Positions 10,059-10,558 of a stretch of 64,000 nt of DNA are shown in pieces; the first letter of the stretch is position 1, and each line of letters begins with the position of its first letter. Source of the stretch: a virus; the UHGV virus genome UHGV-0242533, one strand, 5' to 3'. The notes under the pieces were generated by a model. That model made no database searches and had not been told where the DNA came from. It saw only the letters and a list, made by a program, of their open reading frames with translations. Position numbers and translations under genes: made by a program.

Positions 10059-10168
10059 GATAGTGCCTCTCCCGAAAGGGAGGGGTGTTTCTATAAGCAT
10101 CTTTTCGAGGGTGTTTATTGAAACAACAAAACAGGAGGTAGCAAGTTCTGATAACAACGGCACAGCTA

Positions 10169-10558
10169 ATGTTGACATTGACTATTTATTATGAGGCAGG
10201 GAATCAGCCAACCGCATGTAAGGCTTTAGTTGCGGATACCGTGATAAATAGAATGGCCCAACGAAAACTGACCGCTGAACAGGTGATAAGACAAAAGAAC
10301 CAGTTTGAGTGGATTCCGGTACTATTAAAACAGGAGAAACCTTATAAACGTTATGTAAAGCTGATTCGTGATAAAAATCCGATGACTAAGCAAGCCATTG
10401 GAGAAAGCGAGCGGCTAGCTAAACGTGCCCTTAAGAAGAATTATGTTCCTCTGTACAGTGGGACTTACTTTCAGAGTAAGAGCGAAGGGGTGCCAAAATG
10501 GTATGCCAATCCTATGTATTGTGGTGATTTAGTGTTCGATAATAGCTCTAGGGAATAA
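10169..10558 (+). CDS. SleB/CwlJ-like cell-wall hydrolase domain protein
   Basis: IYYEAGNQ...VADTVINRM...QF motif pattern; frame is open upstream to 10142 without ATG/GTG/TTG although AGGAGG sits at 10134-10139, so the true start is uncertain. Confidence 0.55.
   Translation: MLTLTIYYEAGNQPTACKALVADTVINRMAQRKLTAEQVIRQKNQFEWIPVLLKQEKPYKRYVKLIRDKNPMTKQAIGESERLAKRALKKNYVPLYSGTYFQSKSEGVPKWYANPMYCGDLVFDNSSRE

What the first reader, a model, noticed from the sequence alone, without database searches (positions are those of the whole stretch)
10142..10558. Cell-wall hydrolase-like early gene without a canonical start codon
The SleB-like conserved block starts at the first ATG (10169), and the frame is open upstream to 10142 after a strong AGGAGG (10134-10139) with only CTG/ATA codons at normal spacing. 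It suggests non-canonical initiation or a degraded gene; an early-expressed peptidoglycan hydrolase is also unusual.
Basis: seen in the sequence. Interest (0 to 1): 0.4.

Follow-up and report, generated by a model that had tools for sequence, protein, structure and literature searches.

The report
Phage hydrolase gene starting at CTG
A small cell-wall-cutting enzyme gene of a phiEco32-like E. coli phage most likely begins at a rare CTG start codon, eight codons upstream of the ATG that most database records use, so the gene is intact and probably made at a low level.

Summary
An in-frame TAG follows at 10139-10141, and only CTG (10148) and ATA (10151) sit at normal spacing. The first ATG is 30 nt downstream, at 10169.

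The window is a phiEco32-like Kuravirus and the gene is the phi32_117 homologue. Comparison points to CTG 10148 as the start:
- Syntenic orthologues (45-74% identity) start with TTG or ATG at exactly that codon, just after the same AGGAGGT.
- About half of the sampled relatives have CTT instead of ATG 10169, so that ATG is a derived internal Met.
- The six codons 10151-10168 evolve like coding sequence: all 4 variable sites are synonymous.
- 91 of 148 distant family members have N-termini within 3 residues of the CTG position.

The gene is not decaying (dN/dS 0.07-0.2). The 136-aa product folds like the SleB catalytic domain and keeps the catalytic Glu. It lies in the early gene cluster, behind a terminator. 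A separate late holin/endolysin cassette exists.

This is a new, widely misannotated example of a known rarity (hda, yfjD and IncFIB rep use CTG). Nothing has been tested experimentally.

The parts
10066..10092 (+). Intrinsic-terminator-like hairpin (CCTCTCCC-GAAA-GGGAGGGG plus a T-rich tail) ending the upstream collagen/YadA-like gene. The hydrolase gene lies directly behind it.
   Evidence: Different but equivalent terminators precede the SD in other lineages.
10133..10139 (+). Shine-Dalgarno AGGAGGT, 8 nt upstream of CTG 10148 and 29 nt upstream of ATG 10169.
   Evidence: It is kept at the same place in all relatives as AGGAGG, AGGGGG or GGGGGG. Homology between lineages begins just upstream of it.
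10139..10141 (+). In-frame TAG that closes the hydrolase frame upstream. Codon 10142-10144 (CAA) is TAA in many relatives, so the start cannot lie upstream of 10145.
10148..10150 (+). CTG, the proposed near-cognate start codon. It is orthologous to the TTG or ATG start codons of related phages.
   Evidence: GTTCTGATAAC (10145-10155) is invariant in the 20 intact unique sequences analysed. Record PQ850622 (Bas86) already annotates its CDS from this codon.
10148..10558 (+). Proposed full CDS: 136 aa, a single-domain SleB/Hydrolase_2-type muralytic enzyme, ending with TAA at 10556-10558.
   Evidence: Pfam PF07486. AlphaFold2 pLDDT 90.9. Foldseek top hits are the SleB catalytic domains 4FET/4F55, prob 1.0. 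dN/dS 0.07-0.2.
10151..10168 (+). Six codons (I T T A Q L) between CTG and the annotated ATG. They behave as coding sequence.
   Evidence: All 4 variable sites are third-position and synonymous. pS is 0.56 here against 0.54 downstream, with 0 changes at 12.7 nonsynonymous sites. The residues align with MLTTAALL of the orthologues.
10169..10171 (+). ATG used as the start in phiEco32 and most records. It is probably the internal Met8. Relatives have CTT, TTA or ATT (Leu/Ile) here.
10193..10195 (+). GAG codon for Glu16, invariant in the family. It aligns with the Glu of the YGE motif of Bacillus SleB. That this Glu is the catalytic residue is from my own knowledge of the SleB structure papers.
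   Evidence: invariant E16. (alignment of relative P0019 to 4FET/4F55).
10696..10723 (+). Sigma-70-like promoter (TTTACT-16-AATAAT) in the AT-rich spacer after the hydrolase gene, serving the next gene (10758..11054). It marks the hydrolase as the last gene of its transcription unit.
   Evidence: A promoter is annotated at the equivalent place in SU7 and 4E8.

Best explanation
The gene (the phi32_117 homologue of a phiEco32-like Kuravirus) is an intact, selected gene for a 136-aa single-domain SleB-type muralytic enzyme.

Mechanism of initiation. Translation starts at the near-cognate codon CTG 10148, placed 8 nt after a strong AGGAGGT. Initiator tRNA would decode CUG, giving fMet-I-T-T-A-Q-L-M-L-T-L... 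The ATG at 10169 that most records annotate is an internal methionine. It arose from a Leu codon in one sub-lineage.

Expression level. Near-cognate codons initiate at roughly 1-2% of AUG in E. coli. The gene also sits directly behind a terminator with no promoter of its own. Expression is therefore probably held very low, by transcriptional read-through plus a weak start.

Evolution. Relatives show the series ATG (most distant), TTG (intermediate) and CTG (Kuravirus/Suseptimavirus) at the same codon. This suggests selection for progressively lower output.

What is shown: the anatomy, the orthology of the start codon, coding-type evolution of the upstream codons, purifying selection, the SleB fold and the conserved Glu.

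What is inferred: actual use of CUG, low expression, enzymatic activity, early timing, and the biological role. The role is probably an accessory or ancestral cytoplasmic muralytic enzyme that reaches the wall only when the holin fires.
For: 1. No canonical start lies within reach of the SD, while CTG is 8 nt after AGGAGGT.

2. Six syntenic orthologue groups at 45-74% identity (flanked by the gp120 homologue) start with TTG (L105-L111) or ATG (L112-L114) right after AGGAGGT. The gapless protein alignment puts that codon exactly on CTG 10148. It puts Leu or Ile on ATG 10169.

3. ATG 10169 is CTT in ECBP2, SU7, 4E8, NC-B, TH42, Bas86, EK010 and a metagenome contig. SD, CTG and ATA are invariant.

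4. The codons between CTG and ATG have 4 variable sites, all synonymous third positions. pS is 0.56 there against 0.54 downstream. There are no changes at 12.7 nonsynonymous sites, P about 5e-5 at the neutral rate.

5. Of 148 distant family representatives, 91 have an N-terminus within 3 residues of the CTG position. Only 4 are 5 or more residues shorter. GAP52 and 7-11 homologues start one codon upstream with an ordinary SD and ATG.

6. The AlphaFold2 model (pLDDT 90.9) places residues 4-17 in one confident helix that carries Glu16.

7. dN/dS is 0.07-0.2 at dS up to 0.89 among CTG-bearing phages.

8. Careful annotators found no RBS for the ATG. Phage Paul lists an RBS for nearly every other CDS. 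Bas86 annotates the CTG.

9. There is precedent. hda and yfjD use CTG, and for yfjD mutating the annotated TTG at codon 9 had no effect (PMC3531124). IncFIB rep uses CTG with a good RBS to keep expression low and is widely misannotated 14 codons downstream (PMC11983097). Near-cognates initiate at 1-2% of AUG (bioRxiv 10.1101/063800).
Against: - There is no experimental datum: no N-terminal sequence, ribosome profiling or mutagenesis. The two primary phiEco32 papers (PMC2587145, PMC3275717) were not available.
- The upstream-codon test rests on only 18-24 nt and 3-4 independent substitutions. Two of them always co-occur.
- The start codons of the metagenomic orthologues are gene-caller calls, supported only by SD spacing.
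- In the phiEco32 sub-lineage the Leu codon became ATG through two nucleotide changes. This could reflect selection for an additional internal start, so a shorter isoform may coexist.
- TTG 10172 is conserved everywhere and could in principle serve as an SD-less start.
Confidence: 0.75

Rival explanations
1. Translation starts at the annotated ATG 10169, or at TTG 10172 in phages that lack the ATG. It would do so without a nearby SD, or after ribosomes loaded at the distant SD slide downstream. The eight upstream codons are then 5' UTR.
For: ATG is the strongest start codon. It is the choice of most GenBank records. TTG 10172 is invariant. The CTT-to-ATG change needed two substitutions, which hints at selection for an ATG in the phiEco32 sub-lineage.
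Against: - Nothing SD-like precedes the ATG. Paul's annotators list no RBS for it.
- The ATG is absent in about half of the relatives.
- The upstream codons evolve as coding sequence and align residue for residue with the N-termini of orthologues and of 91 of 148 distant family members.
- The SD is conserved 8-9 nt from the CTG, not near the ATG.
Confidence: 0.15
2. Initiation is at the other near-cognate codon, ATA 10151, 11 nt after AGGAGGT.
For: ATA is invariant and in frame. AUA initiates at about the same low level as CUG (bioRxiv 10.1101/063800).
Against: The orthologous start codon aligns with CTG, and ATA aligns with their second codon, Leu. The 8-nt spacing of CTG is nearer the usual optimum (my own knowledge).
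Confidence: 0.05
3. The gene is a decaying remnant that lost its start codon and is no longer expressed.
For: The canonical start was lost. A few records carry lesions: myPSH1131 has the Glu helix replaced, TH42 lacks the stop codon at the usual position, and one metagenome contig is frameshifted.
Against: dN/dS is 0.07-0.2 across dS up to 0.89. The ORF is intact in 20 of 22 unique sequences. The SD is conserved, with only an A-to-G change that I infer still allows G-U pairing with the anti-SD.
Confidence: 0.03
4. A hairpin between the SD and ATG 10169 brings them together, a split ribosome-binding site of the kind I recall for T4 genes 38 and 25 (my own knowledge).
For: UAGC (10139-10142) and GCUA (10165-10168) are complementary and flank the spacer exactly.
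Against: The predicted fold is weak and no better than shuffles: -8.4 kcal/mol, z = 0.64. The ATG is not conserved. AGC becomes AGT or ATC in relatives with no compensating change in GCT.
Confidence: 0.02

Closest known systems
CTG-initiated genes of E. coli and its plasmids: hda, yfjD and IncFIB rep
   Same: All have a good SD followed at normal spacing by CTG. A canonical codon a few codons downstream (TTG at codon 9 in yfjD, GTG 14 codons down in FIB rep) misleads annotation. In FIB rep the weak start is argued to hold expression low (PMC3531124, PMC11983097).
   Different: Here the gene is a lytic-phage gene for a muralytic enzyme. The CTG start rests on comparative evidence only. A graded ATG, TTG, CTG series is visible among orthologues.
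SleB / CwlJ-type cell wall hydrolases (Pfam PF07486; PDB 4FET, 4F55)
   Same: The catalytic-domain fold matches (Foldseek prob 1.0, TM 0.59-0.65). The (Y/H)E(A/S)(G/R) motif with the conserved Glu and the following ...NR helix are present.
   Different: It is a catalytic domain alone, 136 aa. Nothing precedes the catalytic helix, so there is no room for an N-terminal peptidoglycan-binding domain or signal peptide (by inspection; that SleB has these is my own knowledge). Sequence identity is about 17%. The host is a Gram-negative, non-sporulating bacterium.
'Endolysin' genes of phages 7-11, GAP52 and A24 (PHROG 938)
   Same: They are homologous (30-36% identity) and similar in size, with the same N-terminal helix. 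They lie in the leftward-transcribed non-structural region.
   Different: Those genes have an ordinary SD and ATG and are annotated as the phage's endolysin. Kuraviruses carry a separate late holin plus lysozyme-type endolysin (PMC7881722), so this copy is supernumerary.
infC (AUU start; autoregulation through IF3 discrimination)
   Same: A near-cognate start behind a functional SD makes output depend on start-codon discrimination (my own knowledge).
   Different: No feedback loop is known or implied here. The codon is CUG, not AUU.

Membership tests
SleB/Hydrolase_2 cell wall hydrolase (PF07486) | Pfam model match above the gathering score | tested here: met
   31.9 bits against a 27-bit cut-off, E = 2e-7. 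PHROG 938 'endolysin' matches at E = 9e-8.
SleB/Hydrolase_2 cell wall hydrolase (PF07486) | Fold of the SleB catalytic domain | tested here: met
   AlphaFold2 pLDDT 90.9. The only meaningful PDB hits are 4FET and 4F55, prob 1.0, TM 0.58-0.65. Sequence-only PDB searches were not significant.
SleB/Hydrolase_2 cell wall hydrolase (PF07486) | Catalytic glutamate in the first helix (YGE motif of SleB) | tested here: met
   Glu16 (GAG 10193-10195) is invariant in the family. It aligns with the YGE Glu of 4FET/4F55 through relative P0019. Its catalytic role in SleB is from my own knowledge.
SleB/Hydrolase_2 cell wall hydrolase (PF07486) | Muralytic (lytic transglycosylase) activity | not testable with these tools
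   Needs a zymogram or muropeptide analysis of the purified protein.
SleB proper (spore cortex-lytic enzyme, TIGR02869) | N-terminal peptidoglycan-binding domain plus signal peptide; full-length equivalog score | tested here: not met
   The window protein has no TIGR02869 match. Relative P0019 scores 18.4 bits against a 236.5-bit cut-off. The protein is the catalytic domain only.
Genes initiated at a near-cognate CUG codon | Strong SD with CUG at 5-10 nt and no canonical start in range | tested here: met
   AGGAGGT, then 8 nt, then CTG. No ATG, GTG or TTG lies within 3-13 nt.
Genes initiated at a near-cognate CUG codon | Orthologues carry a canonical start at the same codon | tested here: met
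   TTG in L105-L111 and ATG in L112-L114, with a gapless alignment.
Genes initiated at a near-cognate CUG codon | Codons between CUG and the next canonical start evolve as coding sequence | tested here: met
   4 of 4 variable sites are synonymous. pS equals the gene-wide value. No nonsynonymous change occurs. The sample is small.
Genes initiated at a near-cognate CUG codon | Direct proof: N-terminal peptide, initiation-site ribosome profiling, or CTG-to-CTC mutagenesis | not testable with these tools
   No such data were found. The primary phiEco32 papers were not held.
Canonical phage endolysin of a lysis cassette | Late expression and linkage to holin or spanin genes | tested here: not met
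   Holin is at 61585-61800(-) and the lysozyme-type endolysin at 61064-61552(-), in the late module. The i-spanin is at 42602-42949(+). This gene lies in the early cluster about 4 kb downstream of the sigma-70 promoter cluster.
SAR (signal-anchor-release) endolysin | N-terminal weakly hydrophobic transmembrane segment of about 18-20 residues, usually after basic residues | tested here: not met
   Only 15 residues (MITTAQLMLTLTIYY) precede Glu16 and none is basic. AlphaFold2 models them as the core catalytic helix. Checked by inspection only; no transmembrane predictor was run. The SAR criteria are from my own knowledge.

The most novel reading that the evidence does not exclude
The SleB-type gene is the ancestral endolysin of the wider phiEco32 / 7-11 / GAP52 group. 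After the Kuravirus lineage acquired a late holin plus lysozyme cassette, selection turned the old gene down stepwise (ATG, then TTG, then CTG, behind a terminator) but kept it for a second, low-dose early role. Candidate roles are local wall remodelling or a lysis back-up. The CUG start would make its output depend on IF3 discrimination and thus on the translational state of the infected cell.
Probability: 0.15. Interest if true: 0.55.

Novelty: new member of a known kind. Interest (0 to 1): 0.4.

Why it matters
Verified CTG start codons are very rare in E. coli biology. EcoGene counts hda and yfjD (PMC3531124), and IncFIB rep is the plasmid example (PMC11983097).

This would be a conserved phage example. 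All 22 unique sequences examined carry it, and more than 100 GenBank genomes carry the gene. A visible ATG, TTG, CTG series in the orthologues shows start-codon weakening used as an evolutionary expression dial.

It also corrects the annotation of a gene given five different starts in public records: ATG 129 aa, TTG 128 aa, internal ATGs of 110 and 101 aa, and CTG 136 aa. The two shortest versions (110 and 101 aa) omit the catalytic Glu.

It flags a supernumerary, early-positioned muralytic enzyme in phages proposed for therapy. Its function is unknown.

Tried and rejected
- SD-to-ATG bridging hairpin. The RNA fold of 10120-10200 is weak and not better than shuffles. The ATG is not conserved.
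- Coupling or frameshifting from the overlapping annotated ORF phi32_118 (10063..10194). It spans the terminator, and its upstream part is absent where the upstream module differs. Rejected.
- A phage gp36-type promoter (TAATGTATA) upstream of the gene. None is nearby, and window-wide matches are at chance level.
- A sigma-70 promoter between terminator and SD. None was found.
- Sequence-only searches of the PDB with family profiles. No significant SleB hit; the relation needed Pfam, fold search and a weak pairwise alignment.
- NCBIfam gave nothing useful.
- The primary phiEco32 papers, Savalia 2008 (PMC2587145) and Pavlova 2012 (PMC3275717), are not held. The per-gene temporal class and any proteomic detection of gp117 could not be checked.
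- The metagenome DNA scan returned only 8 loci. The informative intermediate orthologues came from the protein search instead.
- Whether 7-11 and GAP52 lack the lysozyme-type late endolysin. The tblastn result was too broad to tell.
- A scan for other SD-plus-near-cognate sites. It listed 15 motif positions; I followed up only 9460 and 23908, both inside longer ORFs.

Full report
**Identity of the window and the gene**

Region 9900-10800 is 99% identical to Escherichia phage phiEco32 and dozens of other Kuravirus genomes. The ORF in question is the homologue of phi32_117. phiEco32, EcM-vB1, ShigP1, XT32 and Paul annotate it from the ATG at 10169, giving 129 aa. The window is permuted relative to the phiEco32 record:
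- the terminase lies at 2-976 on the minus strand;
- early and middle genes run on the plus strand;
- the late module lies at the far end on the minus strand.

**Check of the observation**

From the sequence:
- AGGAGGT is at 10133-10139.
- An in-frame TAG is at 10139-10141.
- The codons that follow are CAA GTT CTG(10148) ATA(10151) ACA ACG GCA CAG CTA ATG(10169) TTG(10172).
- TAA is at 10556-10558.

No canonical start codon lies within reach of the SD in any frame. The ATG, 29 nt downstream of the SD, has nothing SD-like in front of it. The Pfam Hydrolase_2 match is above threshold.

**Comparison within Gordonclarkvirinae**

I collected 24 loci, 22 of them unique, from GenBank, IMG/VR and metagenomes. 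For the metagenome scan I used an anchor downstream of the region, to avoid biasing the start region. The results were as follows.

- *Where homology begins.* Homology between lineages begins just upstream of the SD. Further upstream there are at least four unrelated terminator modules.
- *The SD.* It is kept as AGGAGG, AGGGGG or GGGGGG.
- *The start region.* GTTCTGATAAC (10145-10155) is invariant.
- *The upstream limit.* Codon 10142 is TAA in many relatives, so a start cannot lie upstream of 10145.
- *The ATG.* It is replaced by CTT in ECBP2, SU7, 4E8, NC-B, TH42, Bas86, EK010 and a metagenome contig.
- *Substitution pattern.* Between CTG and ATG there are four variable sites: 10156, 10159, 10162 and 10168. 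All are third-position and synonymous in the hydrolase frame.
- *Divergence.* Between the window and ECBP2-type phages, synonymous divergence of codons 10151-10168 is 0.56, against 0.54 for the rest of the gene. None of the 12.7 nonsynonymous sites changed, P about 5e-5 if they evolved at the neutral rate. The sample is short, and two of the substitutions always co-occur.

**Orthologues with canonical starts**

A protein search found relatives of 133-136 aa at 34-74% identity. All begin ML(T/S/N)(T/A/S)A..., for example MLTTAALLLTLTIYHEAGNQ. I retrieved the DNA for six of them, at 45-74% identity.
- Their contigs are syntenic. The gp120 homologue lies upstream, at 47-69% identity in five of the six contigs tested; L113 gave no match.
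- L105-L111 start with TTG, 4-5 nt after AGGAGG.
- L112-L114 start with ATG.
- The protein alignment with the window is gapless. It places their start codon exactly on CTG 10148 and their second codon (Leu) on ATA 10151. It places Leu or Ile codons (CTT, TTA, ATT) on the window's ATG 10169.

So the ancestral start is at 10148. The ATG at 10169 is a derived internal Met of the phiEco32 sub-lineage.

Further out, GAP52 and 7-11 homologues start one codon upstream, with an ordinary SD and ATG. In an exhaustive HMM search, 91 of 148 representatives have an N-terminus within 3 residues of the CTG position. Only 4 are 5 or more residues shorter.

**The gene is alive**

Among CTG-bearing phages dN/dS is 0.07-0.2, with dS up to 0.89. 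The ORF is intact in 20 of 22 unique sequences. The gene has therefore been kept under purifying selection for a long time without a canonical start at the ancestral position.

**The protein**

AlphaFold2 on a 13-sequence alignment gives pLDDT 90.9. Residues 4-17 form one confident helix. The only meaningful PDB matches are the catalytic domains of Bacillus SleB, 4FET and 4F55 (prob 1.0, TM about 0.6). Glu16 (10193-10195) is invariant. It aligns with the Glu of the SleB YGE motif; that this residue is catalytic is from my own knowledge of the SleB structure papers.

By inspection there is no signal peptide or extra domain. The 15-residue hydrophobic N-terminus is the core helix, not a plausible SAR anchor.

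**Context**

- A terminator-like hairpin (10066-10092) lies directly upstream, and I found no promoter between it and the SD.
- A promoter-like site for the next gene follows at 10696-10723. A promoter is annotated at the same place in SU7 and 4E8.
- A cluster of consensus sigma-70 promoters lies at about 3300-6100 on the same strand.
- Published work classes the right-end cluster of phiEco32-like phages as early (PMC8948821, PMC9965538).
- No gp36-type promoter motif is nearby.

The 'early' assignment is therefore positional. I could not read per-gene data.

The phage also has a canonical late holin (61585-61800, minus strand) and a lysozyme-type endolysin (61064-61552, minus strand). It has an i-spanin (42602-42949, plus strand) and an internal virion transglycosylase (54434-55213, minus strand) (PMC7881722). 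The SleB-type enzyme is thus a supernumerary muralytic protein.

**Mechanism proposed**

The 30S subunit binds the strong SD and initiator tRNA pairs with CUG at 10148. Near-cognate codons (CUG, AUA, AUU, AUC) initiate at about 1-2% of AUG in E. coli (bioRxiv 10.1101/063800). Together with the upstream terminator, this should give very low expression. The ATG, TTG, CTG series among orthologues suggests stepwise selection for lower output. These steps are inferred, not shown.

The closest precedents are:
- hda and yfjD, where mutating the annotated TTG at codon 9 of yfjD had no effect (PMC3531124);
- IncFIB rep, where CTG plus a good RBS is argued to give 'just enough' expression and the gene is widely misannotated 14 codons downstream (PMC11983097).

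**Rivals**

- *Start at ATG 10169 or TTG 10172.* This is contradicted by the missing SD, by the loss of the ATG in half of the relatives, and by the coding behaviour and family-wide conservation of the upstream residues. A minor shorter isoform in the phiEco32 sub-lineage cannot be excluded.
- *Start at ATA 10151.* Less likely, given the orthology.
- *Pseudogene.* Rejected by the selection analysis.
- *Split-RBS hairpin.* Rejected.

**Annotation consequence**

Public records use five different starts:
- ATG, 129 aa;
- TTG, 128 aa (4E8);
- an internal ATG, 110 aa (O18-011);
- an internal ATG, 101 aa (SU7, EK010, myPSH1131);
- CTG, 136 aa (Bas86).

PHROG 12974 is built on the 129-aa form.

**Verdict**

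It is a new, misannotated member of a known but rare class, CUG-initiated genes. It sits on a known type of phage muralytic enzyme in an unusual genomic position. It is moderately interesting and needs a simple experiment to confirm.

Noticed in passing
window 9264-10058 (+); probable true start at the ATG near 9336: A gene in the early cluster encodes collagen triple-helix repeats plus a YadA-like membrane anchor (Pfam E = 2e-19 and 4e-17). By eye it has a signal-peptide-like N-terminus (MKAFALSAILVLSAISAPSFA). Terminator-like hairpins lie near its 5' end (9256-9303, overlapping the listed ORF start) and just after its stop (10066-10092). The gene is present only in a subset of kuraviruses and absent in KBNP1711 and ECBP2-type phages. 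This looks like a trimeric-autotransporter-like moron.
   Followed up: partly
window 10063-10194 (+): The ORF annotated in phiEco32 as phi32_118 (43 aa, GTG start) spans the terminator hairpin and overlaps the hydrolase start region in another frame. Its upstream part does not exist in lineages with a different upstream module. Substitutions are nonsynonymous in its frame. It is probably spurious.
   Followed up: partly
L094 (myPSH1131, MG983840) 370-410; L089 (TH42); L099 (MAVG01000004.1): A few relatives carry lesions in the hydrolase gene. myPSH1131 has about 40 nt of unrelated sequence in place of the helix with the catalytic Glu. TH42 lacks the stop codon at the usual position. One metagenome contig is frameshifted near the 3' end. 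These could be assembly errors or occasional loss.
   Followed up: no
window 3300-6100 (+): There is a dense cluster of near-consensus sigma-70 promoters. One is a 12/12 match (TTGACA-16-TATAAT at 5880-5907) and three are 11/12. They are presumably the early promoters of the phage.
   Followed up: no
hydrolase residues Cys24 and Cys125 (codons 10217-10219 and 10520-10522): Two cysteines are invariant across the 13-member family alignment (34-87% identity) but are not conserved in GAP52 or 7-11. A disulfide would point to an extracytoplasmic site of action. Their distance in the model could not be checked.
   Followed up: no
L095/L096 (phage Paul, MN045231), CDS 72141-72530: The Paul annotation lists a ribosome-binding-site feature for nearly every other CDS in the record but none for the cell wall hydrolase. 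This is independent human confirmation that the ATG has no SD.
   Followed up: yes
window 20298 (-) and 42055 (-): AAGGAG motifs are followed at 6-10 nt by CTG and open frames of 153 and 94 codons, with no canonical start in range. Both are antisense to the plus-strand genes. They are probably chance.
   Followed up: no
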